A stretch of 64,000 bases of DNA from the NCBI GenBank assembly GCA_965235115.1, contig OZ249436.1, forward strand, positions 558,001-622,000, read 5' to 3'. The position numbers and the translations under genes were made by a program. Of this stretch, positions 10,342 to 64,000 are shown one piece after another. This stretch comes from Laetmonice hystrix. Lineage: Eukaryota. The notes under the pieces were generated by a model. The model was not told the origin of the DNA. It ran no database searches and was given only the letters and a program-made list of their open reading frames with translations. Within the stretch, counting starts at the first letter, position 1. Each line of letters starts with the position of its first letter.

Positions 10342-11996
10342 TAGTTAGAGTGGTCGTACTTCTAGTTAGAGTGCGCCTAGTCGTATCTAGTTAGAGTGCG
10401 CCTTGTCCTTTCTTCTAGTTAGAGCGCGCCCAGTCCTATCTTCTAGTTAGAGTGCGCCCAGTCCTATCGTCTAGTTAGAGTGCGCCCAGTCTTATCTTCT
10501 AGTTAGAGTGCTCCTAGTCTTATCTTCTAGTTAGAGTGCTCCTTGTCTTATCTTCTAGTTAAAGTGCGCCCAGTCTTATCTTCTAGTTAGAGTGCGCCTA
10601 GTCCTATCTTCTAGTTAGAGTGCGCCCAGTCCTATCTTCTAGTTAGAGTGCTCAGAGTCCTATCTTCTAGTTAGAGTGCGCCTTGTCCTATCTTCTAGTT
10701 AGAGTGCGCCTTGTCCTATCTTCTAGTTAGAGTGCGCCTTGTGCTATCTTCTAGATAGAGTGCGCCTTGTCCTATCTTCTAGTTAGAGTGCCCCCAGTCC
10801 TATCTTCTAGTTAGAGTGCGCCTTGTCCTATCTTCTAGTTAGAGTGCCCCCAGTCCTATCTTCTAGTTAGAGTGCGCCCAGTCCTATCTTCTAGTTAGAG
10901 TGCCCCCAGTCCTATCTTCTAGTTAGAGTGCTCCTAGTCCTATCTTCTGGTTAGAGTGCGCCCCGTCCTATCTTCTAGTTAGAGTGCGCCTAGTCCTATC
11001 TTCTAGTAAGAGCGCGCCTAGTCCTATCTTCTAGTTAGAGTGCTCCTAGTCCTATCTTCTAGTTAGAGCGCCCCCAGTCCTATCTTCTAGTTAGAGCGCG
11101 CCTAGTCCTATCTTCTAGTTAGAGTGCTCCTAGTCCTATCTTCTAGTTAGAGTGCGCCTTGTCCTATCTTCTAGTTAGAGTGCTCCTAGTCCTATCTTCT
11201 AGTTAGAGTGCTCCTAGTCCTATCTTCTAGTTAGAGTGCGCCTAGTCCTATCTTCTAGTTAGAGTGCTCCTAGTCCTATCTTCTAGTTAGAGTGCGCCTA
11301 GTCCTATCTTCTAGTTAGAGTGCGCCTTGTCCTATCTTCTAGTTAGAGTGCGCCTTGTCCTATCTTCTAGTTAGAGTGATCCTAGTCCTATCTTCTAGTT
11401 AGAGTGCGCCTTGTCCTATCTTCTAGTTAGAGTGCGCCTTGTCCTATCTTCTAGTTAGAGTGCGCCCAGTCCTATCTTCTAGTTAGAGCGCGCCTAGTCC
11501 TATCTTCTAGTTAGAGTGCGCCTTGTCCTATCTTCTAGATAGAGTGCGCCTTGTCCTATCTTCTAGTTAGAGTGCTCCTAGTCCTATCTTCTAGTTAGAG
11601 TGCGCCCAGTCTTATCTTCTAGTTAGAGCGCGCCTAGTCCTATCTTCTAGTTAGAGTGCGCCTAGTCCTATCTTCTAGTTAGAGTGCGCCCAGTCCTATC
11701 TTCTAGTTAGAGTGCGCCCAGTCCTATCTTCTAGTTAGAGTGCGCCCAGTCCTATCTTCTAGTTAGAGTGCTCCTAGTCCTATCTTCTAGTTAGAGTGCT
11801 CCTAGTCCTATCTTCTAGTTAGAGTGCTCCTAGTCCTATCTTCTAGTTAGAGTGCGCCCAGTCCTATCTTCTAGTTAGAGTGCGCCCCGTCCTATCTTCT
11901 AGTTAGAGTGCGCCTTGTCCTATCTTCTAGTTAGAGTGCGCCCAGTCCTATCTTCTAGTTAGAGTGCGCCCAGTCCTATCTTCTAGTTAGAGTGCG
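10342..11996. repeat. 28-bp minisatellite with a variable central segment
   Basis: Unit CTAGTTAGAGTGCGCCCAGTCCTATCTT; centre varies (GCGCCCA/GCGCCTT/GCTCCTA/GCCCCCA); left-edge copies degenerate. Confidence 0.99.
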
Positions 11997-12383
11997 AATA
12001 GTCCCATCTTTTGAAGACGCCTCTCCCAACTGGTGGGTGGGCTTTATTCATGCACTTTGCGTGTCATCGTCCCTCCCCCCCGAGCTATATGCAAAGGCAA
12101 TGCGGGATCAAATCGTTTGAAGACAGATTAAATTTGAGTCGAGTCAATCCCTCCTCGAGCTAGGCTCTACAGAAAGTTTGCAGGCATTCAGTTCCCCATA
12201 ATTATATAAAGGGAATCGAAATCCTTGGAGACTATTTGCATGTTAGAAACACCGATCACAAGACTCGAACATTCGGACTACAAATACCCGTTCATTTACC
12301 GTCAGCCTCATTACGATTGGATGCAATCACGTGTGGGGATTAGGTTACAGGATAGCTGGGTCTTTCTCTGCATGGCTGCCCAA

Positions 12384-13511
12384 GTAGGGGTCTTTCTCTG
12401 GTTGTCTATGTAGGGATCTTTCTCTGGTTGTCTATGTAGGGGTCATTCTCTGGTTGTCTATGTAGGGACCTTTCTCTGGTTGTCCATGTAGGGGTCTTTC
12501 TCTGGTTGTCTATGTAGGGGTATTTCTCTGGTTGTCTATGTAGGGGTCTTTCTCTGGTTGTCTATGTAGGGATCTTTCTCTGGTTGTCTATGTAGGGGTC
12601 ATTCTCTGGTTGTCTATGTAGGGGTCTTTCTCTGGTTGTCTATGTAGGGGTCTTTCTCTGGTTGTCTATGTAGGGGTCTTTCTCTGGTTGTCTATGTAGG
12701 GGCTTTTCTCTGGTTGTCTATGTAGGGGTCTTTCTCTGGTTGTCTGTGTAGGGGTCTTTCTCTGGTTGTCTATGTAGGGGTCATTCTCTGGTTGTCTATG
12801 TAGGGGTCTTTCTCTGGTTGTCTATGTAGGGGTCTTTCTCTGGTTGTCTATGTAGGGGCTTTTCTCTGGTTGTCTATGTAGGGGTCTTTCTCTGGTTGTC
12901 TGTGTAGGGGTCTTTCTCTGGTTGTCTATGTAGGGGTCATTCTCTGGTTGTCTATGTAGGGGTCTTTCTCTGGTTGTCTATGTAGGGGTCTTTCTCTGGT
13001 TGTCTATGTAGGAGTCTTTCTCTGGTTGTCCATGTAGGGGTCTTTCTCTGGTTGTCTATGTAGGGGTCTTTCTCTGGTTGTCCATGTAGGGGTCTTTCTC
13101 TGGTTGTCTATGTAGGGGTCTTTCTCTGGTTGTCCATGTAGGGGTCTTTCTCTGGTTGTCTATGTAGGGATCTTTCTCTGGTTGTCTATGTAGGGGTCTT
13201 TCTCTGGTTGTCTATGTAGGGGTCTTTCTCTGGTTGTCTATGTAGGGGTCTTTCTCTGGTTGTCTATGTAGGGGCTTTTCTCTGGTTGTCTATATGTAGG
13301 GATCTTTCTCTGGTTGTCTATATGTAGGGATCTTTCTCTGGTTGTCTATGTAGGGGTCTTTCTCTGGTTGTCTATGTAGGGATCTTTCTCTGGTTGTCTA
13401 TGTAGGGATCTTTCTCTGGTTGTCTATGTAGGGACCTTTCTCTGGTTGTCCATGTAGGGGTCTTTCTCTGGTTGTCTATGTAGGGGTATTTCTCTGGTTG
13501 TCTATGTAGGG
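12384..13511. repeat. 26-bp minisatellite
   Basis: Unit GTAGGGGTCTTTCTCTGGTTGTCTAT in tandem. Confidence 0.99.
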
Positions 13512-13900
13512 TGAGTCCCTCTCAAGGTCTTTCCCTGAGGAGTGAGTCCCTCTCGAGGTCTTTCCCTGAGGAGTGAGTCCCTCTCGAGGTCTTTCCCTGA
13601 GCTGGAGTGAGTCCCTCTCGTGGTCTTTGTCTGATAAGTGAGTCCCTCTCGGGGTTTTTCCCTGAGGAGTGAGTCCCTCTCGAGGTCTTTCTCTGAGGAG
13701 TGAGTCCCTCTGGAGGTATTTCCCTGAGCTGGAGTGAGTCCCTCTTGGGGTCTTTCCCGGAGGAGTGAGTCCATCTCGAGGTATTTCCCTCAGCTGGAGT
13801 GAGTCCCTCTCGAGGTCTTTCTCTGAGAAGTGAGTCCCTCTCGAGGTTTTTCCCTGAGCTGGAGTGAGTCCCTCTCGAGGTGTCACGGGAGTGAGTCCCT
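13511..13900. repeat. 31/34-bp minisatellite directly abutting the 26-bp array
   Basis: Unit GGAGTGAGTCCCTCTCGAGGTCTTTCCCTGA(GCT), ~12 moderately diverged copies. Confidence 0.97.
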
Positions 13901-14288
13901 GAGGATACCTAACTCCTCACGGTCGCCAATAAGTTTGACCTTAGATCAGGTTTACAGAAGAAAAGAACTTTAAAAAAAATCAGTTTAAGTCATCCAGTAT
14001 GGTTCGGTTGAAAGGCACGGCGGAGTCCTTCCCATGTTGTCAGGGTTTGATTAATAGTAGTCGTGACTGCTCTTTCTGTTTTCGAGACAGACACGCAAAG
14101 GGAATGTGAGAAGTTACCATAGCCGACATTCCCCCAGAGAGATTATGCACATATAGATCTTGTTTGACATAAATACTTGAACGCAGAGAACAGCACTGGG
14201 GTAGTCCAACAGCGAAGGTATAATCTCAGTTACAGGTATTAGTCATGGCTGTGGAAATATATAACGGTAGTAGATGTATATATCTACT

Positions 14289-14525
14289 GGTATCCAGACA
14301 TAATGTCCCATGACATTTTGTCCCGTGACATTGTGTCCCGTGATATTGTGTCCCGTGACATTGTGTCCCGTGACATTGTGTCCCGTGACATTGTGTCCCG
14401 TGACATTGCGTCCCGTGACATTGCGTCTCGTGACATTGCGTCCCGTGACATTGCGTCCCGTGACATTGTGTCCCATGACATTGTCTCCCGTGACATTGTG
14501 TCCCGTGACATTGTGTCCGGCATTC
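14289..14525. mobile_element. Small non-autonomous MULE/Foldback-like element filled with a 15-bp tandem repeat
   Basis: Perfect 9-bp direct repeat ATATCTACT at 14280-14288 and 14526-14534; imperfect inverted ends GGTATCCAGACA / TGTCCGGCATTC; interior is (TGACATTGTGTCCCG)n. A 9-bp TSD is typical of the Mutator superfamily. Confidence 0.7.
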
Positions 14526-14728
14526 ATATCTACTAGCACTCGGTATCTTTTAAAACAAAACAGATCTCAAACAAACGTTCTGTTGTTAGTAAATGGTCTC
14601 CTCGTCAATGTGGCCCGTGGTAGATGTGGTTGGTATGTAGCACGTTATAAGTACAAATGTAACGAAGATAAACTGCTTTAAACAACTCAGAAACCCCACG
14701 GGAGGAATATGGGGACAACGACAAAGAC

Positions 14729-17032
14729 GATGGGGGATTTATCCCTTCACTGTGTTAGAGATGGGGGATTTATCCCTTCACTGTGTTAGAGATGGGGGAT
14801 TTATCCCCTCACTGTGTTAGAGATGGGGGATTTATCCCCTCACTGTGTTAGAGATGGGGGATTTATCCCCTCACTGTGTTAGAGATGGGGGAGGGGGGAT
14901 TTATCCCCTCACTGTGTTAGAGATGGGGGATTTATCCCCTCACTGTGTTAGAGATGGGGGATTTATCCCTTCACTGTGTTAGAGATGGGGGATTTATCCC
15001 CTCACTGTGTTAGAGATGGGGGATTTATCCTCTCACTGTGTTAGAGATGGGGGATTTATCCCTTCACTGTGTTAGAGATGGGGGATTTATCCCCTCACTG
15101 TGTTAGAGATGGGGGATTTATCCCCTCACTGTGTTAGAGATGGGGGATTTATCCCCTCACTGTGTTAGAGATGGGGGATTTATCCCCTCACTGTGTTAGA
15201 GATGGGGGATTTATCCCCTCACTGTGTTAGAGATGGGGGATTTATCCCCTCACTGTGTTAGAGATGGGGGATTTATCCCCTCACTGTGTTAGAGATGGGG
15301 GATTTATCCCCTCACTGTGTTAGAGATGGGGGAGGGGGGGATTTATTCCTTCACTGTGTTAGAGATGGGGGATTTATCCCCTCACTGTGTTAGAGATGGG
15401 GGATTTATCCCCTGACTGTGTTAGAGATGGGGGATTTATCCTCTCACTGTGTTAGAGATGGGGGAGGGGGGATTTATCCCCTCACTGTGTTAGAGATGGG
15501 GGAGGGGGGGATTTATTCCTTCACTGTGTTAGAGATGGGGGATTTATCCCCTCACTGTGTTAGAGATGGGGGATTTATCCCCTCACTGTGTTAGAGATGG
15601 GGGATTTATCCCCTCACTGTGTTAGAGATGGGGGAGGGGGGGATTTATTCCTTCACTGTGTTAGAGATGGGGGAGGGGGGGATTTATTCCTTCACTGTGT
15701 TAGAGATGGGGGATTTATCCCCTCACTGTGTTAGAGATGGGGGATTTATCCCCTCACTGTGTTAGAGATGGGGGATTTATCCCCTCACTGTGTTAGAGAT
15801 GGGGGATTTATCCCCTCACTGTGTTAGAGATGGGGGAGGGGGGATTTATCCCTTCACTGTGTTAGAGATGGGGGAGGGGGGGATTTATTCCTTCACTGTG
15901 TTAGAGATGGGGGATTTATCCCCTCACTGTGTTAGAGATGGGGGATTTATCCCCTCACTGTGTTAGAGATGGGGGATTTATCCCCTCACTGTGTTAGAGA
16001 TGGGGGATTTATCCCCTCACTGTGTTAGAGATGGGGGATTTATCCCCTCACTGTGTTAGAGATGGGGGAGGGGGATTTATCCCCTCACTGTGTTAGAGAT
16101 GGGGGATTTATCCCCTCACTGTGTTAGAGATGGGGGATTTATCCCCTCACTGTGTTAGAGATGGGGGATTTATCCCCTAACTGTGTTAGAGATGGGGGAT
16201 TTATCCCCTCACTGTGTTAGAGATGGGGGATTTATCCCTTCACTGTGTTAGAGATGGGGGATTTATCCCTTCACTGTGTTAGAGATGGGGGATTTATCCC
16301 CTCACTGTGTTAGAGATGGGGGATTTATCCCCTCACTGTGTTAGATATGGGGGATTTATCCCTTCACTGTGTTAGAGATGGGGGATTTATCCCCTCACTG
16401 TGTTAGAGATGGGGGATTTATCCCCTGACTGTGTTAGAGATGGGGGATTTATCCTCTCACTGTGTTAGAGATGGGGGAGGGGGGATTTATCCCCTCACTG
16501 TGTTAGAGATGGGGGAGGGGGGATTTATCCCCTCACTGTGTTAGAGATGGGGGATTTATCCCCTCACTGTGTTAGAGATGGGGGATTTATCCCCTCACTG
16601 TGTTAGAGATGGGGGATTTATCCCCTCACTGTGTTAGAGATGGGGGATTTATCCCCTCACTGTGTTAGAGATGGGGGAGGGGGGATTTATCCCCTCACTG
16701 TGTTAGAGATGGGGGATTTATCCCCTCACTGTGTTAGAGATGGGGGATTTATCCCCTCACTGTGTTAGAGATGGGGGAGGGGGGATTTATCCCCTCACTG
16801 TGTTAGAGATGGGGGATTTATCCCCTCACTGTGTTAGAGATGGGGGATTTATCCCTTCACTGTGTTAGAGATGGGGGATTTATCCCTTCACTGTGTTAGA
16901 GATGGGGGATTTATCCCCTCACTGTGTTAGAGATGGGGGATTTATCCCCTCACTGTGTTAGAGATGGGAGATGGGGGATTTATCCCTTCACTGTGTCAGA
17001 GATGGGGGATTTATCCCCTCACTGTGTTAGAG
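14729..17032. repeat. 31-bp minisatellite with internal hairpin
   Basis: Unit GATGGGGGATTTATCCCCTCACTGTGTTAGA (GGGGAT-TT-ATCCCC stem); variants carry an extra G-run. Confidence 0.99.
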
Positions 17033-17221
17033 TGAAGGTAATTACGCTCTATCCAAACGTTCATGTACAATTACAATACAATCGAGATCCTTTGATAATC
17101 AATTCTTGTAATCAACGCGATAGTCATCAGTAAAAAAAACAACGATCTTGAAGATCTTTTGTAAAGTCCAAATGTAGGACAACCGTGCCTCGTGCTACAA
17201 GGAATGTGTATGAATGTGATT

Positions 17222-17668
17222 GCGGGGAGGAATCTCTCACTGAACGTGACAGTGTGCGGAGTGTTGGGGAGTGAAGAGCGGGGAGGAGGGAGACAGTGTG
17301 CGGAATGTCGGGGAGTGAAGAGCGGGGAGGAATCTCTCACTGAACGTGACAGTGTGCGGAGTGTTGGGGAGTGAAGAGCGGGGAGGAATCTCTCACTGAA
17401 CGTGACAGTGTGCGGAGTGTTGGGGAGTAAAGAGCGGGGAGGAGGGAGACAGTGTGCGGAGTGTTGGCGAGTGAAGAGTGGGGAGGAATCTCTCACTGAA
17501 CGTGACAGTGTGCGGAGTGTTGGCGAGTGAAGAGCGGGGAGGAATCTCTCACTGAACGTGACAGTGTGCGGAGTGTTGGGGAGTGAAGAGCGGGGAGGAA
17601 TCTCTCACTAAACGTGACAGTGTGCGGAGTGTTGGGGAGTAAAGAGCGGGGAGGAGGGAGACAGTGTG
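17222..17668. repeat. ~56-bp minisatellite with shorter variant units
   Basis: Unit GCGGGGAGGAATCTCTCACTGAACGTGACAGTGTGCGGAGTGTTGGGGAGTGAAGA. Confidence 0.97.
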
Positions 17669-17796
17669 CCAGCCGAGGTCGAGGGCCCGTTCTTCAAAGA
17701 AGCATATTCCCGCAAGGAATGCACATTTATGTGAATTGTCTTGGAGGGGCTTGATGTATTGTCTTTAAGATCTCGATCTCGTGATCGGCTCCCTGT

Positions 17797-17811
17797 GGCT
17801 CCCTCTGGTGG
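17797..17811 (-). promoter_or_regulatory. CTCF-like motif
   Basis: Reverse complement reads CCACCAGAGGGAGCC, close to the CTCF core CCASYAGRKGGCRS; motif match only. Confidence 0.4.
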
Positions 17812-17882
17812 TGTCATTATTCTTATGATGGATCAATGCTGGCCGTGGCCGCCAGACAGTTTCGGTTTCTCTGTCAGATTGT

Positions 17883-20028
17883 GGTAACCAACTGTGGCTG
17901 ACCTGCTGGTAACTAACTGTGGCTGACCTGCTGGTAACCAACTGTGGCTGACCTGCTGGTAACTGACTGTGGCTAACCTGCTGGTAACAACCAACTGTGG
18001 CTGACCTGCTGGTAACCGACTGTGGCTGACCTGCTGGTAACAACCAACTGAGGCTGACCTGCTGGTAACTGACTGTGGCTGACCTGCTGGTAACAACCAA
18101 CTGTGGCTGACCTGCTGGTAACCGACTGTGGCTGACCTGCTGGTAACAACCAACTGTGGCTGACCTGCTGGTAACTGACTGTGGCTGACCTGCTGGTAAC
18201 AACCAACTGTGGCTGACCTGCTGGTAACCGACTGTGGCCGACCTGCTGGTAACAACCAACTGTGGCTGACCTGCTGGTAACAACCAACTGTGGCCGACCT
18301 GTTGGTAACCGACTGTGGCCGACCTGCTGGTAACAACCAACTGAGGCTGACCTGCTGGTAACAACCAACTGTGGCCGACCTGTTGGTAACAACCAACTGA
18401 GGCTGACCTGTAGGTAACCGACTGTGGCCGACCTGCTGGTAACAACCAACTGAGGCTGACCTGCTGGTAACAACCAACTGAGGCTGACCTGCTGGTAACC
18501 GACTGTGGCTGACCTGCTGGTAACAACCAACTGTGGCTGACCTGCTGGTAACTGACTGTGGCTGACCTGCTGGTAACCAACTGTGTCTGACCTGCTGGTA
18601 ACCGACTGTGGCTGACCTGCTGGTAACTGACTGTGTCTGACCTGCTGGTAACTGACTGTGTCTGACCTGCTGGTAACCAACTGTGGCTGACCTGCTGGTA
18701 ACCGACTGTGGCTGACCTGCTGGTAACCGACTGTGGCTGACCTGCTGGTAACCAACTGTGGCTGACCTGCTGGTAACCAACTGTGGCTGACCTGCTGGTA
18801 ACCAACTGTGTCTGACCTGCTGGTAACTGACTGTGTCTGACCTGCTGGTAACCAACTGTGGCTGACCTGCTGGTAACCGACTGTGGCTGACCTGCTGGTA
18901 ACAACCAACTGAGGCTGACCTGCTGGTAACAACCGACTGTGGCTGACCTGCTGGTAACCAACTGTGGCTGACCTGCTGGTAACAACCAACTGAGGCTGAC
19001 CTGCTGGTAACCGACTGTGTCTGACCTGCTGGTAACCAACTGTGGCTGACCTGCTGGTAACCGACTGTGGCTGACCTGCTGGTAACAACCAACTGTGGCT
19101 GACCTGCTGGTAACCGACTGTGGCTGACCTGCTGGTAACCGACTGTGGCTGACCTGCTGGTAACCGACTGTGGCTGACCTGCTGGTAACAACCAACTGAG
19201 GCTGACCTGCTGGTAACCGACTGTGGCTGACCTGCTGGTAACAACCAACTGTGGCTGACCTGCTGGTAACCAACTGTGGCTGACCTGCTGGTAACAACCA
19301 ACTGTGGCTGACCTGCTGGTAACCGACTGTGGCTGACCTGCTGGTAACAACCAACTGTGGCTGACCTGCTGGTAACAACCAACTGTGGCTGACCTGCTGG
19401 TAACAACCAACTGTGGCTGACCTGCTGGTAACCGACTGTGGCTGACCTGCTGGTAACAACCAACTGTGGCTGACCTGCTGGTAACCAACTGTGGCTGACC
19501 TGCTGGTAACAACCAACTGTGGCTGACCTGCTGGTAACCGACTGTGGCTGACCTGCTGGTAACAACCAACTGTGGCTGACCTGCTGGTAACAACCAACTG
19601 TGGCTGACCTGCTGGTAACAACCAACTGTGGCTGACCTGCTGGTAACAACCAACTGTGGCTGACCTGCTGGTAACCAACTGAGGCTGACCTGCTGGTAAC
19701 CGACTGTGGCTGACCTGCTGGTAACCAACTGTGGCTGACCTGCTGGTAACCAACTGAGGCTGACCTGCTGGTAACTGACTGCGGCTGACCTGCTGGTAAC
19801 TGACTGTGGCTGACCTGCTGGTAACCGACTGTGGCTGACCTGCTGGTAACCAACTGTGGCTGACCTGCTGGTAACCGACTGTGGCTGACCTGCTGGTAAC
19901 AACCAACTGAGGCTGACCTGCTGGTAACCGACTGTGGCTGACCTGCTGGTAACAACCAACTGAGGCTGACCTGCTGGTAACCAACTGAGGCTGACCTGCT
20001 GGTAACTGACTGTGGCTGACCTGCTGGT
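17883..20028. repeat. 25/28-bp minisatellite
   Basis: Unit GGTAAC(AAC)CAACTGTGGCTGACCTGCT; accounts for the minus-strand ORFs at 17765-20062. Confidence 0.99.
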
Positions 20029-20144
20029 GCGGCAGGAGAAGGAACCGCCTCCGTCCCTTCATCCAGCGACAGACTACGGTTTATAACTTTAGAAGGTCAC
20101 TGAGCCAGGGTTGTTCCCGTCAATCACATTATATAAAGACCAAA

Positions 20145-21298
20145 TTGTAGCACCCCACGCATGGTTCGATAGGTAGACATACTACTTGTAGCACCCCACG
20201 CATGGTTCGATAGGTAGACATACTACTTGTAGCACCCCACGCATGGTTCGATAGGTAGACATACTACTTGTAGCACCCCACGCATGGTTCGATAGGTAGA
20301 CATACTACTTGTAGCACCCCACGCATGGTTTGATAGGTAGACATACTACTTGTAGCACCCCACGCATGGTTCGATAGGTAGACATACTACTTGTAGCACC
20401 CCACGCATGGTTCGATAGGTAGACATACTACTTGTAGCACCCCACGCATGGTTCGATAGGTAGATATACTACTTGTAGCACCCCACGCATGGTTCGATAG
20501 GTAGACATACTACTTGTAGCACCCCACGCATGGTTCGATAGGTAGACATACTACTTGTAGCACCCCACGCATGGTTCGATAGGTAGACATACTACTTGTA
20601 GCACCCCACGCATGGTTCGATAGGTAGACATACTACTTGTAGCACCCCACGCATGGTTCGATAGGTAGACATACTACTTGTAGCACCCCACGCATGGTTC
20701 GATAGGTAGACATACTACTTGTAGCACCCCACGCATGGTTCGATAGGTAGACATACTACTTGTAGCACCCCACGCATGGATCGATAGGTAGACATACTAC
20801 TTGTAGCACCCCACGCATGGTTCGATAGGTAGACATACTACTTGTAGCACCCCACGCATGGATCGATAGGTAGACATACTACTTGTAGCACCCCACGCAT
20901 GGATCGATAGGTAGACATACTACTTGTAGCACCCCACGCATGGTTCGATAGGTAGACATACTACTTGTAGCACCCCACGCATGGTTCGATAGGTAGACAT
21001 ACTACTTGTAGCACCCCACGCATGGTTCGATAGGTAGACATACTACTTGTAGCACCCCACGCATGGTTCGATAGGGAGATATACTACTTGTAGCACCCCA
21101 CGCATGGTTCGATAGGTAGACATACTACTTGTAGCACCCCACGCATGGTTCGATAGGTAGACATACTACTTGTAGCACCCCACGCATGGTTCGATAGGTA
21201 GACATACTACTTGTAGCACCCCACGCATGGTTCGATAGGTAGACATACTACTTGTAGCACCCCACGCATGGTTCGATAGGTAGACATACTACTTGTAG
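20145..21298. repeat. 41-bp minisatellite, ~28 near-identical copies
   Basis: Unit TTGTAGCACCCCACGCATGGTTCGATAGGTAGACATACTAC; array begins and ends in TTGTAG. Confidence 0.99.
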
Positions 21299-21857
21299 TC
21301 ACCAGAAACTGGCCCCACTGCTTTGATTTCAGACGACAAAGTACTAACAGACAGACTCACTCTAACATTAGCCGTGCGTGTGTCACGCATATCTCAGCAT
21401 CTTCATACGTGAGCAGGAACAAATATAAACTACCAGAGAAGACATCAGTATTACATACATGATCTGGTTCCATAAAGTCGCTAATATTTCATGGGTACAA
21501 ATGGGGACTTTACTCATCTTGTATTTAGATCAACACTCAAATGTTGCTAAACGTCTCAAACACGAGCGTATTTATGAGGCAGCACCGGGATATGCTCCCC
21601 TTCCGGTTTTAAATGTAATGTATACGGTCATGATCCCTCCTTCAAAATCTTTGCCCCATTACGGATTTTCTCTATACGAGAACTGTCTTGTGAAGACTGC
21701 ACAAGCTTGGCCGCTGATAGCTGTGCTGGCCAGACCAGGCATCGGTCGTTAATGATCAGAACGGTTGGCATTCAGCATCCGGCTGGGACTATGTCATCGC
21801 TGCAAACGTTCATCTCTTCACCACCGAACATTCACCACTCGCAAATACCGCTTTGAG

Positions 21858-21937
21858 GAAATTGCACGCTTAATCTTGCTCCTAGAAGGTTTCCCAGAAA
21901 TTGCACGTGTAATCTTGCTCCTAGAAGGTATCCCAGA
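21858..21937. repeat. 39-bp tandem duplication (2 copies)
   Basis: GAAATTGCACGYKTAATCTTGCTCCTAGAAGGTWTCCCA occurs twice. Confidence 0.9.
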
Positions 21938-22423
21938 CGTGCCTTTAACACGAGTCCTGTGCAAACGCACGCGGCGCACACGGACGAGTGGTACGCCGAC
22001 AGGTGTACGCCAGGAGGAGGTAATCTACCGTCTGTGTCAACACCTCGCGAGCCGTGCATGCCATTAATGTCCGCGCAGAATGTTTGCTCTGCTGGCTTAA
22101 GTAGTTGAAATAATCTTTTGAAGACAGAGATAAAGATTGATACTTTGCCTCGAAAACGAATCGGATATGTCATTGTGCAGTGTGGAGAAACAGAGCGTGT
22201 GTGTTCAATGGGGGGAATTTACCAAAGGAACGGAGTGAAAGAGAACCAATTTTTTGTTTCGGGGAAGATGTGGGTCTGAAAATAATATGCCACAGATCTG
22301 TGTGAGTTATAATGTTATGGTGACAATTAGGATTCTAGCAACCATTCTCTCTTATGGCGGCAATCGTGACTGATTTGCAATATAATTGTCCGCGTTGTCT
22401 GTCGAGAGAGCGAGAACGGGAGC

Positions 22424-22434
22424 GATAGAGAGAG

Positions 22435-22474
<40 letters not shown>

Positions 22475-22497
22475 AGAGAATGAGAGAGAGAGAGAGA

Positions 22498-22537
<40 letters not shown>

Positions 22538-22629
22538 ATGAGAGAGAGAGAGAGAGGGAGAGAGAGAATGAGAGAGAGGGAGGGAGAGAGAGAGAGAGAG
22601 TGAGAGAGAGAGAGAGGGAGAGAGAGAAT

Positions 22630-22704
<75 letters not shown>

Positions 22705-22705
22705 C

Positions 22706-22778
<73 letters not shown>

Positions 22779-22780
22779 GA
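22424..22780. repeat. (GA)n imperfect microsatellite
   Basis: GA dinucleotide run with GGGA/AATG interruptions. Confidence 0.99.
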
Positions 22781-23169
22781 GTTTTCCGAACAGGATAGGT
22801 TATGGTTAACTCCAATCAAACAATAGCATTTAATATATTTATATTGTCCTCAGTGGATCGATATATCAACAGACGACGGGCAGGAGGAGAACTTTGAAAT
22901 ACAGCAGTAGTGTTCTAAAATGATCTCAAGAGGTTTCCTAATTACACAGTGGGAATCAATATATTCATAGTTTATACCTCAATATCTCCCGCGTTTTCTT
23001 CCACAGACATTCACCAATCTTTGAATGTGAACATATAAATCCGGTCAGTGAATATGTATAATGGTAGAAATCGATACACAGTGCCCCAGTAGGACTACGG
23101 AACCCAAACTAACAAGATATCTAGTCATCTGTGTGTTTCCATTGTTTGATATACCGAGTCCTGGGATGA

Positions 23170-24390
23170 CTCGTGTATATTGACTACACGTACACGATAC
23201 TTCCATCTTACAAAGGCATCTTTTCCTTGATTCTATGCCCAACCATGCCGAACAAGTATAGACCAACTTCTCGTGTATATTGACTACACGATACTTCCAT
23301 CTTACAAAGGCATCTTTTCCTTGATTCTATGCCCAACCATGCCGAACAAGTATAGACCAACTTCTCGTGTATATTGACTACACGATACTTCCATCTTACA
23401 AAGGCATCTTTTCCTTGATTCTATGCCCAACCATGCCGAACAAGTATAGACCAACTTCTCGTGTATATTGACTACACGATACTTCCATCTTACAAAGGCA
23501 TCTTCTCCTTGATTCTATGCCCAACCATGCCGAACAAGTAGGCCAACTTCTCGTGTATATTGACTACACGATACTTCGATCTTACAAAGGCATCTTTTCC
23601 TTGATTCTATGCCCAACCATGCCGAACAAGTAGGCCAACTTCTTGTCTACATTGACTACACGATACTTCCATCTTACAAAGGCATCTTCTCCTTGATTCT
23701 ATGCCCAACCATGCCGAACAAGTAGGCCAACTTCTCGTGTATATTGACTACACGATACTTCGATCTTACAAAGGCATCTTTTCCTTGATTCTATGCCCAA
23801 CCATGCCGAACAAGTAGGCCAACTTCTCGTGTATATTGACTACACGATACTTCCATCTTACAAAGGCATCTTTTCCTTGATTCTATGCCCAACCATGCCG
23901 AACAAGTAGGCCAACTTCTGGTGTATATTGACTACACGATACTGCCATCTTACAAAGGCATCTTTTCCTTGATTCTATGCCCAACCATGCCGAACAAGTA
24001 GGCCAACTTCTCGTGTATATTGACTACACCATACTGCCATCTTACAAAGGCATCTTTTCCTTGATTCTATGCCCAACCATGCCGAACAAGTAGGCCAACT
24101 TCTCGTGTATATTGATTACACCATACTTCCATCTTACAAAGGCATCTTTTCCTTGATTCTATGCCCAACCATGCCGAACAAGTAGGCCAACTTCTCGTGT
24201 ATATTGACTACACGATACTGCCATCTTACAAAGGCATCTTTTCCTTGATTCTATGCCCAACCATGCCGAACAAGTAGGCCAACTTCTTGTCTACATTGAC
24301 TACACGATACTTCCATCTTACAAAGGCATCTTCTCCTTGATTCTATGCCCAACCATGCCGAACAAGTATAGGCCAACTTCTTGTCTATAT
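23170..24390. repeat. 92/94-bp tandem repeat, ~13 copies
   Basis: Unit CTCGTGTATATTGACTACACGATACTTCCATCTTACAAAGGCATC...CCGAACAAGTA(TA)GGCCAACTT; TCGTGTA/TACACGA stem in most units. Confidence 0.98.
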
Positions 24391-24654
24391 TTCTCCTTTA
24401 ATCCCTAATGTAGCTTGCAGATGCAGTGAAGCAGACAGTGTAATACTACTTTGTAATACTACCTTGGATATGTCTGTTATATAGTTTGATCTCTTAGATG
24501 TTTATGGCCTGCCTTGCGAAGAATGGCCAGATTTTGAGGGTAGGCTAATATATAGATCTATATAGGCCTACTCTTGTGATAAATACGGGGCATATATCGT
24601 CATTCACTGGCGAGCTTCAAATCCATCAGATTCCCGTTAATCAGGTCTGTCCCT

Positions 24655-25258
24655 AAACATATAATCTCTGGGTTATTGCCGACCTGAAGATTAACCTACA
24701 ACATATCACATATCACATATAACATATCACATATCACATATCACATATAACCCCTGGGTTATTGCCGACCTGGCGATTAACCTATAACATATCACGTATC
24801 ACATATCACATATAATCCCTGGGTTATTGCCGACCTGACGATTAACCTATAACATATCACATATCACATATCACATATCACATATCACATATCACGTATC
24901 ACATATCACATATCACATATAATCCCTGGGTTATTGCCGACCTGAAGATTAACCTATAACATATCACATATCACATATCACATATCACATATCACATATC
25001 ACATATAACATATAACATATCACATATCACATATAATCCCTGGGTTATTGCCGACCTGAAGATTTACCTATAACATATCACATATCACATATCACATATC
25101 ACATATCACGTATCACATATCACCTATAACCCCTTGGTTATTGCCGACTTGAAGATTAACCTATAACCTATCACATATCACATAATCACATATAACATAT
25201 CACATATAACATATCACATATAACCCATGGGTTATTGCCGACCTGAAGATTAACCTAT
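24655..25258. repeat. Compound repeat: ~40-bp core x7 separated by variable (ATATCAC)n tracts
   Basis: Core AATCCCTGGGTTATTGCCGACCTGAAGATTAACCTATAAC alternates with 7-bp microsatellite runs of differing length. Confidence 0.96.
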
Positions 25259-25806: not shown

Positions 25807-27286
25807 ACTCTGTGCCGACTGAGCGGTAGGGTATTATACCGACCAAGTGCTGGCCCTAACGATGGTCACTAATTTGACATGCGGGCCAATAGGGACAATA
25901 GAGAGGTCTCTGGACACTCGTCAGAGGGGAGAGTGAGATGGGGTGAGGAGACCACTAAAGATGAATATATATGTTTTCTGATCCTCAAACGTACAGGCTG
26001 CGTCTGTATATTTTCGTTATGTTCGTCGTTCTAGATGTCATCGTAAAGTCCTATAACACGTAGTTTTGTTGGCTTGTGGTGTTCGACCTGATACATTCAT
26101 TATACCCGTTATAATGATTTACATTGACCTTTCTTTGACCTTGAAGACGATGGTCAGGTTCTGAACTACAGAATTATAATAAGTGGGGGCCTAGTTATTT
26201 CTTAACAATTGATAAGGCCATAATTACCCAATCTGAAAATTTTAGTTCATGCATTAAGTCGCCATACGGAAATACATGGGGAATTTAACGAACGGAATTC
26301 ATGGAACTGTCGCAAGCACATTGGTAAGGGGCTGCGGGAGGGGCATTCCTTAACCTGCCAATATACTTCTTGCCGGCGTCAATTAGGCATTGATGGGTTG
26401 TGTGTGGGCCATCATTCCTACCCTTAACGGCCTTCGCCCGGGGACGGCCTGGCTTGTTGCCGGCCGGGCTATTACTGCTTTTCTTCCGGCACTACAAAAT
26501 TTCCGTCGGAATGACGAAATTCAATGTATTTGAGCAGGGCATCGGGCGAGACGTTCGGGGGAATATAAAGTGTCAATCCATCGATTGCGACCTTGGCGAC
26601 GTGAATACTGATGGCCTGGCGGGGGGGGGGGGGGGGATTCAACCACGCCAGGGAGGCGTGTTGGCGGGAGGATCAACATCCGGTAGACAGCCCTGACCCC
26701 GTGTATATAAACGTTGATATCACCAGGCGGCTGTCTGGGTTACCAAAGGTTTCAAGTGAAGCTGAAGGAAAGTCCAAAACAAATTGTTTTTCTTTAACTT
26801 CACTTGACTGAGAACGTTTTCTGTATCATTCTCGGGCGAGCCGCCAGTGGCATATCACGACGGTAAATATTGGCAAATGTTGAGAAATGCTAAACGATTT
26901 GCGACATCGGGAGAATTAATCCGAACAATTACAAGTTACGGCCGCGTGACAGCTTTCCGTTCAATATTAATGTGGTTCGATTATTGATGGGCTACAGATG
27001 GCATATCTAAATAAAGTCAAGCCGACCATCATGTTTTTATCCGCTATTTTGTCGTCTTCTTGAAAGTTTGATGTGGTCTGCGAGACTGGTTGTCTGCTGG
27101 CTGTCTGCTGGCTGGTTATAAATGACAGGGTAACATCTCTGTCCGTAACTCGCTTCCTGAAATCATATCGACAGCAAGGTCGTCCAAAGTCAAACTCTCC
27201 CTCATATACTTCTATTACCACGTTCTTTCTCACAGTAAATCCCCGCTTTTCCTTAGAAAGTTGTAGGCCGACAGCTGTCTATTATA

Positions 27287-27370
27287 TGGTTAGGGTTAGG
27301 GTTAGGGTTAGGGTTATTATACCGGTTAGGGTTAGGGTTAGGGTTATTATAGCGGTTAGGGTTAGGGTTA
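27287..27370 (+). repeat. Interstitial telomere-type (TTAGGG)n blocks
   Basis: Three short GGTTAG runs separated by TTATTATACC/TTATTATAGC. Confidence 0.93.
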
Positions 27371-27393
27371 TTATACCGGTGGGGTTGGTACAA

Positions 27394-62119: not shown

Positions 62120-62802
62120 GCAGTCTCCGGACCGACATATGATTTGACAGTGATTGACATTCTTACCTCCGGCAATTGTCATAGGCCTACACCTATCCAT
62201 CACCAGCAATCTATAACAAGTCTACCTACTGAATCGTTCTGAAAATAAATTCAATTACAGATTGTAGAAGATCTTGGCAATGACGAGGACTTATTTCCTA
62301 GTAGGCCTATGTTGAGGCCTTTACGGCTGAATACAAAGTCGACCGGAAATGGACCAGTGATGTCCATAGTAAGTGAGCTCCACGGACTATGCAGAAAAAC
62401 GGACTTTGATCTGGTATAGTTGAGGTCCTACTCAAAACGTGATAATTGGATGCCAACGACAGAGGCCTACTGGATGGATTGGAGGGACGACGGTCATAGA
62501 CTTGACACGTGATTGACTGGCGGCCATTTACAAAATCTTTCAACTGGACACACGACATACACTGACTAACATGTTATGAAAGTCTCTGGTCACGACATCG
62601 AGTTTCTACAGATGGTCAGCCTAGAGGCATTAATCTGGTGTACGCTGTGGATACTAATCCTAACTCATACGACACTGGTATAGATCTACCCGGCGCAGAT
62701 TTATGAGCCTTTGGCAGAACTAATTTCCTGGATATTGGCAATATGTGCAGCTCATTATTTGATACGGGAACACTTAAGATTTGGAAACTTCCCGGCTTCT
62801 TT

Positions 62803-63095
62803 TTCAGCCTAGCTCTGACGATATTAGCCACCATGGCAATATCTGCTGGTCACTCACACACAATCACACAAGTACATTCAGCCTAGCTATCTGCTGGTCA
62901 CCCACACACAATCACACAAGTACATTCAGCCTAGCTCTGACGATATTAGCCACCATGGCAATATCTGCTGGTCACCCACACACAATCACACAAGTACATG
63001 GTCACCCACACACAATCACACAAGTACATTCAGCCTAGCTATCTGCTGGTCACCCACACACAATCACACAAGTACATTCAGCCTAGCTATCTGCT
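62803..63095. repeat. Short nested tandem repeat (~48-bp and longer variant units)
   Basis: TTCAGCCTAGCT...ATCTGCTGGTCACCCACACACAATCACACAAGTACA modules repeated; abuts the 334-bp array. Confidence 0.93.
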
Positions 63096-63198
63096 GTGTA
63101 GCTCTAACTAGGAAAATATGGATTCCGTCTCATTTCAAAAAGATGTGTGTAGGGGGGAGGGTCCATTGTCCTGCTCGACCACCAAAGCTCCTTTTTTA

Positions 63199-63309
63199 GG
63201 GGAGTGGCGGTGGCCTAGTGGGCATGGATGTCGACACCTTATGCTATGCGAATGGGTGCAGTAATCTTAGGGTCTGGGTTCGATTCCTGTAGAGGACTAT
63301 ACAACTTTT
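63199..63309 (+). ncRNA. Putative Pol III type-2 cassette (tRNA-derived SINE head or vault-like RNA), copy 1
   Basis: A box TGGCCTAGTGG 63211-63221, B box GGTTCGATTCC 63277-63287, TTTT 63306-63309; no valid tRNA acceptor stem. Confidence 0.55.
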
Positions 63310-63532
63310 CTCTTTAGGGACATTGTCAAAGTAATTGGGTTACCCCTGATGCCCGTGCATTTCAAAAGAAAAATACAGTCTACGCCAGTGCCAGGATTAC
63401 CTTAACAGTCAATGTTCGGTAGAAATCATGTGTAGCTCTAACTAGGAAAATATGGATTCCGTCTCATTTCAAAAAGATGTGTGTAGGGGGGAGGGTCCAT
63501 TGTCCTGCTCGACCACCAAAGCTCCTTTTTTA

Positions 63533-63643
63533 GGGGAGTGGCGGTGGCCTAGTGGGCATGGATGTCGACACCTTATGCTATGCGAATGGGTGCAGTAATC
63601 TTAGGGTCTGGGTTCGATTCCTGTAGAGGACTATACAACTTTT
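63533..63643 (+). ncRNA. Putative Pol III type-2 cassette, copy 2
   Basis: A box at 63545, B box at 63611, TTTT downstream; same sequence as copy 1. Confidence 0.55.
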
Positions 63644-63866
63644 CTCTTTAGGGACATTGTCAAAGTAATTGGGTTACCCCTGATGCCCGTGCATTTCAAA
63701 AGAAAAATACAGTCTACGCCAGTGCCAGGATTACCTTAACAGTCAATGTTCGGTAGAAATCATGTGTAGCTCTAACTAGGAAAATATGGATTCCGTCTCA
63801 TTTCAAAAAGATGTGTGTAGGGGGGAGGGTCCATTGTCCTGCTCGACCACCAAAGCTCCTTTTTTA

Positions 63867-63977
63867 GGGGAGTGGCGGTGGCCTAGTGGGCATGGATGTC
63901 GACACCTTATGCTATGCGAATGGGTGCAGTAATCTTAGGGTCTGGGTTCGATTCCTGTAGAGGACTATACAACTTTT
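63867..63977 (+). ncRNA. Putative Pol III type-2 cassette, copy 3
   Basis: A box at 63879, B box at 63945, TTTT downstream; same sequence as copy 1. Confidence 0.55.
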
Positions 63978-64000
63978 CTCTTTAGGGACATTGTCAAAGT

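What the first reader, a model, noticed from the sequence alone, without database searches (positions are those of the whole stretch)
63095..64000. 334-bp tandem array carrying an intact Pol III A-box/B-box/terminator cassette that is not a tRNA
Seen: each unit has TGGCCTAGTGG (A box), GGTTCGATTCC (B box) 66 nt later, TTTT 18 nt after the B box, and a T6 run just upstream of the cassette start. The 5' end AGGGGAGT can pair with ACTTTTCT at the 3' end (8 bp, 3 G:U). The A-to-B spacing is ~21 nt longer than in an intronless tRNA and the acceptor stem fails. Established: type-2 internal promoters drive tRNAs, tRNA-derived SINEs and vault RNAs; vault RNAs are ~100 nt with A box, variable centre, B box, closing stem and U-run. 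Inference: this is a homogenised tandem array of a ~110-nt Pol III RNA gene (vault-like or novel), or a SINE-head-derived satellite that kept its promoter. The T6 could insulate successive units.
Basis: partly seen in the sequence, partly recalled or inferred. Interest (0 to 1): 0.7.

Follow-up and report, generated by a model that had tools for sequence, protein, structure and literature searches.

The report
Tandem jumping repeat with tRNA-type promoter
The 334-base repeat does carry a perfect tRNA-type promoter sequence, but it is one copy of a very abundant repeat family in which the whole unit has multiplied, so it is likely a selfish RNA-copied element of a known general kind, not a new small-RNA gene.

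Summary
The sequence is as described: 2.71 identical 334-bp units (cut by the window end), each with an 11/11 A box, an 11/11 B box, T4 and T6. The 110-nt vault-like gene reading fails. Rfam gives no Vault or tRNA hit, the fold is no better than shuffles, and the closing stem is chance-level (542 of 5000 shuffles) and overlaps the proposed terminator. Laid on contigs of the same organism, the whole unit, spacer included, has about 10^4 times the summed depth of the flank (roughly hundreds to 10^4 copies). Common variants are denser in the cassette than in the spacer. Copies join many different flanks: right-hand breaks cluster at 63378-63380 and left-hand breaks are scattered, which fits a retroposon with a fixed 3' end and 5' truncation. 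Best reading: a young non-autonomous tandem retroposon with an internal Pol III promoter, likely read through T4 and likely copied by a Penelope-like reverse transcriptase. The partner was not found here and expression is untested. Pol III-promoter tandem repeats are known (newt PolIII/TAN, Rana/polIII, OAX, schistosome SMalpha). No working hammerhead, so not a retrozyme.

The parts
63095..64000 (+). Head-to-tail array, 2.71 identical 334-bp units, cut by the window end
63095..63096 (+). Left junction: the array starts inside a unit (49 bp after the inferred 3' end), with a 2-nt TG overlap with the flanking minisatellite; read as a 5'-truncation point (inferred)
63192..63197 (+). T6 followed by AG (again at 63526-63531 and 63860-63865): likely the stronger Pol III stop for the unit upstream; broken by an internal T>A in about 9% of family depth
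63198..63200 (+). Predicted Pol III start (box A normally begins about +12)
   Evidence: inference from PMC7279448 passage
63211..63221 (+). A box, 11/11 to consensus; its only common variant (63216, 33%) is at a free position
63277..63287 (+). B box, 11/11 to consensus; no variant at 5% or more, while 63269, 63273, 63275 and 63288 beside it vary
63306..63309 (+). T4 followed by CT: possible weak stop; must be read through if the element is copied from 63380
   Evidence: inference
63199..63380 (+). Head module (promoter plus 3' part), shared with shorter sister repeats that join 63380 back to 63178 or 63205
   Evidence: table 5c
63378..63380 (+). Clustered right-hand breakpoint of family members; inferred fixed 3' end
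   Evidence: table 7: 4 of the 5 'behind' rows shown
63346..63380 (+). Hammerhead-like order of motifs (CUGAUG with A9 changed, GAAA, GUC) with no helix II; not a working ribozyme by the published core
63381..63525 (+). Body ('spacer'): high-copy and the least variable part of the family
62840..63094 (.). Unrelated 48-bp minisatellite into which the array is joined
62308..62832 (.). Low-depth flank, one contig at depth 59.7 in run X1; used as the single-copy reference
   Evidence: tables 2 and 8

Best explanation
This is one locus of an abundant, low-divergence 334-bp repeat family whose whole unit is amplified and which carries tRNA-type A and B boxes; it is likely a non-autonomous retroposon, likely transcribed by Pol III from about 63199 through the T4, and likely copied back into DNA from a fixed 3' end near 63380 by a borrowed, probably Penelope-like, reverse transcriptase. 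Shown: the motifs, whole-unit amplification, many different flanks, a clustered right end and scattered left ends. Inferred: (1) Pol III starts just after the T6 and mostly stops at the next unit's T6, giving an RNA of about 330-334 nt rather than 110 nt; read-through, or copies with a broken T6, give longer RNAs. (2) The RT starts at the 63380 end and makes successive copies (template jump, or a circular template), leaving head-to-tail units with a random 5' cut, as at 63095 here. (3) Arrays may grow further by DNA-level recombination in this repeat-prone genome. All three visible units share an allele at 63273 that only about 2.5% of family depth carries, so this array came from one template.
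For: run X1 (same organism as the best holder): flank depth 59.7; summed depth at single positions 0.68-1.47 million across the unit, in the spacer (63138, 63164, 63397, 63410) as well as the cassette. Summed contig depth is not a copy number; bounds are about 370 (worst-case overlap) to 11,000-25,000, and two minor alleles imply about 1,300-1,600. A marine metagenome (X4) and a run under another organism label (X7) each give a 364-nt cyclic contig (334+30) with no flank, so the tandem form is abundant. 486 of 5109 laid contigs in X1 and 29 of 56 in X6 fit only partly. Of the 14 loose-end rows shown (270 more not shown), 4 of 5 right-hand rows fall at 63378-63380 (19+7 contigs in X1, 2 in X6, with four different continuations), and the 8 left-hand rows inside the unit fall at 8 different places. 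Common variants avoid the fixed box positions (0 of 20 versus 8 of 92; not significant, p=0.35). Frequent 5' truncation and partial or multi-copy head-to-tail insertion are Penelope-like hallmarks, including non-autonomous families and lineages without hammerheads (PMC8557442 passages). T4 suffices in human but T5-T6 is needed in yeasts, and a following CT weakens a yeast T5 while A/G strengthens it (PMC5356446 passages).
Against: No Penelope-like or other RT sequence was found: 0 RT or GIY-YIG hits among 104 non-repeat reading frames of the window, and no genome was held. No target-site duplication or tail could be examined because the right end lies outside the window. The 19 contigs leaving at 63380 share a related continuation (agreement 0.63), so many are a sister family and not independent insertions; 63380 may be a module boundary. 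Only 14 of 284 loose ends were shown. The -31/-24 region upstream of the predicted start is 5/8 G+C (from the sequence), which weakens SINE transcription in mammalian tests (PMC7279448). A linear Pol III RNA would need several T6 read-throughs to template 2.7 or more units. T4 could be a full stop in this animal.
Confidence: 0.55

Rival explanations
1. A satellite spread at the DNA level (unequal exchange, extrachromosomal circles, or carriage inside a DNA transposon). It once captured a SINE or tRNA head, and the promoter is now a passenger.
For: 66% of the window is tandem arrays of unrelated units. The units here are 100% identical. SINE-derived satellites are documented (PMC10702118). The head is more variable than the body. 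No RT partner was found.
Against: The left flank is low-depth, so there is no high-copy carrier on that side. Right ends cluster while left ends scatter. Both boxes are perfect and their fixed positions lack common variants while neighbours vary (not significant). Reptile SINE satellites amplify parts of a SINE, such as a 67-nt unit holding box B.
Confidence: 0.27
2. An ordinary LINE-dependent tRNA-SINE of about 180 bp (63199-63380), of which one copy plus 152 bp of flank was later amplified as a satellite.
For: Fixed right end at 63380; sister repeats share the head but not the body (table 5c); the head is somewhat deeper than the body in X1 (about 1.0-1.7x by site) and 2-3x deeper in X6.
Against: No A-rich or simple-repeat tail at 63380 in the window unit (sequence). 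The body is within about 1.7x of head depth in X1, so head-only copies cannot dominate. The body is the better conserved part, and 63347-63447 has an about 83% homologue across the 63380 point in run X7.
Confidence: 0.1
3. A functional tandem gene array for a ~110-nt Pol III RNA (vault-like or new), ended by the T4 and insulated by the T6.
For: Perfect A and B boxes, with T4 18 nt after the B box. T4 has no variant at 5% or more and can stop human Pol III. A short RNA could be made as a by-product.
Against: No Rfam Vault or tRNA match at the gathering score or at E<=10. Fold z-scores are +0.43, +0.88 and +1.02 for three cassette boundaries. The closing stem is chance-level and runs past the terminator. 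The cassette is more variable than the spacer. The family has hundreds to thousands of copies with truncated members.
Confidence: 0.05
4. An array of intron-containing tRNA genes or recent tRNA pseudogenes.
For: A 66-nt box spacing fits an intron. ARAGORN with introns allowed and the threshold lowered to 90% reports a tRNA-Ile-like fold with a 25-nt intron, score 91.9.
Against: 0 genes at the normal threshold, with or without introns. The sub-threshold fold uses the upstream T-run as acceptor stem, puts the A box out of register and has a G.G mismatch in the anticodon stem. No Rfam tRNA hit.
Confidence: 0.03

Closest known systems
Pol III-promoter tandem repeats of amphibians: PolIII/TAN (~360 nt, newt), Rana/polIII (~250 nt), OAX (Xenopus), Hy/polIII (PMC10702118 Background, read)
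   Same: Abundant head-to-tail units of 200-360 nt with a tRNA-like promoter region and no matching ordinary SINE known.
   Different: Here the host is an invertebrate (earlier unchecked notes suggest a marine annelid). No sequence comparison was made. PolIII/TAN was transcribed in vitro; this one is untested.
Schistosome SMalpha (335 bp) and metazoan non-LTR retrozymes (PMC8490949 passages; PMC7229834 abstract, one section, passages; bioRxiv 10.64898/2026.07.22.740005 abstract, most of Results, Discussion)
   Same: Unit size (170-400 nt class), non-coding, tandem plus dispersed copies, proposed Penelope-like partner.
   Different: No intact type I hammerhead on either strand, and no stable self-paired fold (z +0.35 for the unit-length RNA). 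The RNA ends would be set by Pol III start and stop instead of self-cleavage (inferred).
Non-autonomous Penelope-like elements, e.g. Chlamydomonas MRC1; hammerhead-less Naiad/Chlamys lineages (PMC8557442 passages)
   Same: 5' truncation, multi-copy head-to-tail insertion, no canonical hammerhead.
   Different: A tRNA-type Pol III promoter is not mentioned for them in the passages read. Shared 3' sequence with an autonomous element was not shown here.
tRNA-derived SINEs and SINE-derived satellites (PMC10702118)
   Same: A and B boxes at the 5' end of the predicted RNA, high copy number, fixed 3' end.
   Different: No simple-repeat tail; carries its own T6; mainly tandem; the whole unit, including sequence past the fixed end, is amplified.
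Vault RNA
   Same: Type-2 promoter; about 110 nt from the start to the first T-run.
   Different: No covariance-model match, no significant terminal stem, variable cassette, very high copy number.

Membership tests
Vault RNA | Match to the Rfam Vault covariance model | tested here: not met
   0 hits at gathering; at E<=10 only an 11-nt tmRNA T-loop match
Vault RNA | Stable 5'/3' closing stem ahead of the U-tail (recalled) | tested here: not met
   Stem overlaps and passes the T4; 542 of 5000 shuffles give one; z +0.43
Vault RNA | Few gene copies, RNA part better conserved than flanks (recalled) | tested here: not met
   Hundreds to 10^4 copies; cassette more variable than spacer
Vault RNA | Association with vault particles | not testable with these tools
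   needs experiment
tRNA gene | Cloverleaf with acceptor, D, anticodon and T arms | tested here: not met
   ARAGORN 0 genes at default, also with introns; a sub-threshold, misregistered 91.9 fold only
Non-LTR retrozyme / SMalpha type | Tandem non-coding unit of about 170-400 nt | tested here: met
   334 bp, tandem
Non-LTR retrozyme / SMalpha type | Type I hammerhead (CUGANGA, helix II, GAAA, NUH) | tested here: not met
   No exact core on either strand; one 1-mismatch core without helix II, seen in 426 of 3000 shuffles (57 with a nearby GUC); no Rfam ribozyme hit
Non-LTR retrozyme / SMalpha type | Abundant circular RNA, highly self-paired | tested here: inconclusive
   Fold not better than shuffles; circular RNA not testable
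tRNA-derived SINE | Internal A and B boxes | tested here: met
   11/11 and 11/11
tRNA-derived SINE | Many dispersed copies with a fixed 3' end | tested here: inconclusive
   Many flanks and a cluster at 63378-63380, but only 14 of 284 loose ends were seen, from contigs
tRNA-derived SINE | Simple-repeat or A-rich tail and LINE-derived 3' region | tested here: inconclusive
   No tail inside the unit at 63380; the array's right end is outside the window; no LINE available to compare
Non-autonomous Penelope-like element | 5' truncation and head-to-tail insertion | tested here: met
   Array begins mid-unit; left breaks scattered; polarity inferred from the promoter strand
Non-autonomous Penelope-like element | Terminal sequence shared with an autonomous PLE of the same genome | not testable with these tools
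   No genome held; none in the window; claimed only in the unchecked note e1-7908725
Pol III-promoter tandem repeat (PolIII/TAN, Rana/polIII type) | Abundant tandem unit holding a tRNA-like promoter | tested here: met
Pol III-promoter tandem repeat (PolIII/TAN, Rana/polIII type) | Pol III transcription shown | not testable with these tools
   needs RNA reads or in vitro transcription

The most novel reading that the evidence does not exclude
A ribozyme-free retrozyme: a Penelope-dependent mini-element whose monomer RNA is defined by a Pol III start just after one T6 and a stop in the next T6 (334 nt, exactly one unit). The RNA is joined into a circle or chained by template jumps and reverse-transcribed from 63380 into tandem arrays, so Pol III has replaced the hammerhead, whose decayed core would still mark the 3' end.
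Probability: 0.17. Interest if true: 0.62.

Novelty: new member of a known kind. Interest (0 to 1): 0.3.

Why it matters
As a new species-level repeat family it matters mainly for annotation: it should be masked, and its A/B boxes should not be read as a new RNA gene. If the Penelope link and the unit-length RNA hold, it would connect three loosely described groups (amphibian Pol III tandem repeats, SMalpha-type elements, non-LTR retrozymes). It would also give a young, abundant system for testing how Penelope-like RTs make tandem copies and whether the hammerhead is dispensable.

Tried and rejected
No whole genome was held, so the genome-wide BLAST of cassette versus spacer could not be run. 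Within the window the unit has no second copy (best BLAST E 0.72). Exact-pattern scans found nothing in metagenome contigs, viral contigs (17, 33) or prokaryote genomes (32, 37). Look-up of earlier findings by sequence found 0 windows, so I could not confirm that note e1-7908725 concerns this same family; same genome, same unit length and a Pol III promoter make it likely. Sequencing runs: no RNA holder listed; this says nothing on expression. Run X6 (same sample as X1, library type not on record, no cover of the flank) shows the head 2-3 times deeper than the body; contigs cannot show RNA ends or level, so this is not used as expression evidence. An HDV-like descriptor gave 0 hits on both strands. 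Rfam at E<=10 on 63320-63535 gave two chance hits far below their cut-offs. Sliding folds: 1 of 34 windows reached z below -2 (63498-63557, both strands, the C/T-run facing the G-run across the T6), not taken as structure. The hammerhead-relic idea was kept only as a possibility: 14% of shuffles give the 1-mismatch core, and the homologous contig in X7 does not keep it. My first guess, a SINE head caught in unrelated local DNA, was dropped because the spacer is amplified too. Two literature searches for vault RNA gave no defining paper that I read, so vault features are recalled. Searches listed no paper that by title or abstract start describes a tRNA-promoter, Penelope-dependent tandem element in an annelid; the library lacks most subscription papers. 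No supplements were read; those of the bioRxiv preprint (Repbase matches of retrozymes) could bear on the Penelope link.

Full report
Observation. The region 63095-64000 is an exact 334-bp tandem: two full identical units and an identical 238-bp part, cut by the window end. Each unit has the A box (63211), the B box 66 nt later (63277), TTTT 18 nt after the B box (63306-63309) and T6 upstream (63192-63197). Both boxes fit the published type-2 consensus at every position (PMC7279448 passages). Such a pair arose in 0 of 20000 shuffles and nowhere else in the window. The promoter-like signal is therefore real. The setting is an animal-like genome packed with minisatellites: 42190 of 64000 bp lie in tandem arrays. 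No RT or other clear protein domain is in the non-repeat part (104 frames scanned, one weak sub-threshold DM hit).

Not a tRNA, not a vault RNA. Rfam gave no match at gathering scores for the window and, at E<=10, only the 11-nt T-loop of tmRNA on the B box. ARAGORN found no gene with or without introns; lowering the threshold gave a misregistered fold scoring 91.9. Three cassette boundaries fold no better than shuffles (z +0.43, +0.88, +1.02); a wider 141-nt stretch gave -0.41. The 8-bp closing stem is there, but 542 of 5000 shuffles have one, and its last two bases lie past the TTTT, so stem and terminator cannot both work as proposed.

What is amplified. No genome was held, so I used public runs (10 listed from 5 studies) and laid 4 of them on 62300-63460 (all contigs). 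In X1, probably the sample behind this assembly and so not independent, the flank is one contig at depth 59.7. Single positions across the unit have summed depth 0.68-1.47 million, in the spacer as well as the cassette. Summed contig depth overcounts, so this is no copy number: the bounds are about 370 to 11,000-25,000, and two minor alleles imply about 1,300-1,600. A marine metagenome (X4) and a run under another organism label (X7) each hold a 364-nt cyclic contig, the 334-bp unit joined to itself, with 1 and 3 differences and no flank. X7's depth is about 10, so trace DNA cannot be told from true presence. The amplified thing is the whole unit.

Conservation runs the wrong way for an RNA gene. 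Among X1 variants at 5% or more, sites with a minor allele of 15% or more number 5 of 112 in the cassette and 1 of 222 in the spacer (p=0.017). At about 5% the counts are 7 and 8 (p=0.28). Diversity per site is 0.023 versus 0.007. The fixed box positions carry no common variant (0 of 20 versus 8 of 92 other cassette positions; p=0.35), which fits but does not show selection on the promoter. The T6 region is variable: about 9% of depth has it broken by an A. All three window units share an allele at 63273 held by about 2.5% of family depth, so the array derives from one template.

Ends. 486 of 5109 laid contigs in X1 and 29 of 56 in X6 fit only in part. Of 14 loose-end rows shown (270 more were not shown), 4 of the 5 right-hand rows lie at 63378-63380, with four different continuations. 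The 8 left-hand rows inside the unit lie at 8 different places (63095, 63140, 63178, 63200, 63236, 63279, 63333, 63347). Two joints lead from 63380 through 27-28 other letters back to 63178 or 63205, which points to shorter sister repeats sharing the head (table 5c). A fixed right end with scattered left ends, on the strand of the promoter, is what reverse transcription with 5' truncation leaves. The array here starts 49 bp into a unit in that phase, with a 2-nt overlap to the flank. Against this, the largest group at 63380 (19 contigs) shares a related continuation, and some left-hand rows are diverged relatives, so part of the signal is sister families.

How it likely works. Pol III would start at about 63198-63200 (box A near +12). 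T4 stops human Pol III, but yeasts need T5-T6, and in yeast a following CT weakens a T5 while A or G strengthens it (PMC5356446 passages). Here T4 is followed by CT and T6 by AG, so a unit-length RNA of 330-334 nt ending in the next unit's T6 is the more likely product; this extrapolates from other species. To be copied from 63380 the RNA must pass the T4. Head-to-tail insertion with 5' truncation is typical of Penelope-like elements, including non-autonomous families and lineages without hammerheads (PMC8557442 passages). Tandem 170-400-nt retrozymes are proposed to use such RTs (PMC7229834 section 14; bioRxiv 10.64898/2026.07.22.740005 Results part 1 and Discussion). An earlier unchecked note on a 334-nt Pol III unit 4.36 Mb away in this genome reports shared ends with a Penelope-like element (e1-7908725). 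I confirmed high copy number, low divergence and the chance-level fold for my unit, but could not test the Penelope link, nor prove it is the same family. Weak points: the G+C-rich -31/-24 region, the several read-throughs a linear template would need, and no RNA evidence.

Ribozyme test. No exact hammerhead core lies on either strand. One core with A9 changed sits at 63346-63371 with GUC at 63378-63380, exactly at the clustered end. It lacks helix II, 426 of 3000 shuffles give such a core (57 with a nearby GUC), and the 83%-alike contig in X7 does not keep it. It may be a relic or chance; the element fails retrozyme membership but may work like one.

Comparison and verdict. Tandem repeats with tRNA-like promoters are known: PolIII/TAN (~360 nt, transcribed in vitro), OAX, Rana/polIII and Hy/polIII (PMC10702118 Background), and the 335-bp SINE-like SMalpha with a hammerhead (PMC8490949 passages). 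This family is a new member of that loose kind. Best explanation 0.55; DNA-level satellite 0.27; ordinary SINE later tandemised 0.10; 110-nt RNA gene 0.05; tRNA array 0.03. Interest 0.3. The boldest reading not excluded, a ribozyme-free retrozyme whose monomer is set by Pol III start and stop, has probability about 0.17. Papers were seen as follows: PMC7229834 abstract, one section and passages; the preprint's abstract, most of Results and Discussion; PMC4209133 part 1 of 4; PMC10702118 Background and passages; PMC8557442, PMC8490949, PMC6155905, PMC5356446 and PMC7279448 passages only.

Noticed in passing
window 1-64000: About 66% of the window is tandem arrays of some 40 unrelated units (periods 4 to 334 bp), many over 90% identical.
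   Followed up: partly
run X7, contig 22, on window 63347-63447: A 213-nt contig about 83% alike to the unit across the 63380 point, with 105 unrelated letters upstream. It could be the end of a partner element or a sister family.
   Followed up: no
run X1 joints 63380 to 63178 and 63380 to 63205: Shorter sister repeats of about 200-230 bp that keep the promoter head and replace the body by 27-28 letters (table 5c).
   Followed up: partly
window 63131-63145: A small hairpin (5 bp) whose loop differs in a diverged relative while pairing is kept by a one-sided change (loose ends and 5c); it lies in a stem-loop at 63111-63171 with z -1.91 (folded in unit 2).
   Followed up: partly
window 63131-63140 and 63358-63367: A 10-bp direct repeat occurs twice in each unit, once in the body and once just before the clustered end.
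   Followed up: no
run X6: Same sample as X1, 58 million letters of contigs, no flank cover, unit fragments inside 0.8-1.9 kb contigs; library type is not on record.
   Followed up: partly
window 26224-26424 +: Weak Pfam DM-domain hit (E 0.0024, 18.2 bits, cut-off 27) in a 67-residue frame; the translation does not look like a real DM exon, probably chance.
   Followed up: partly
window 27288-27380: Short interstitial GGTTAG (telomere-like) run with a 30-bp higher-order unit.
   Followed up: no
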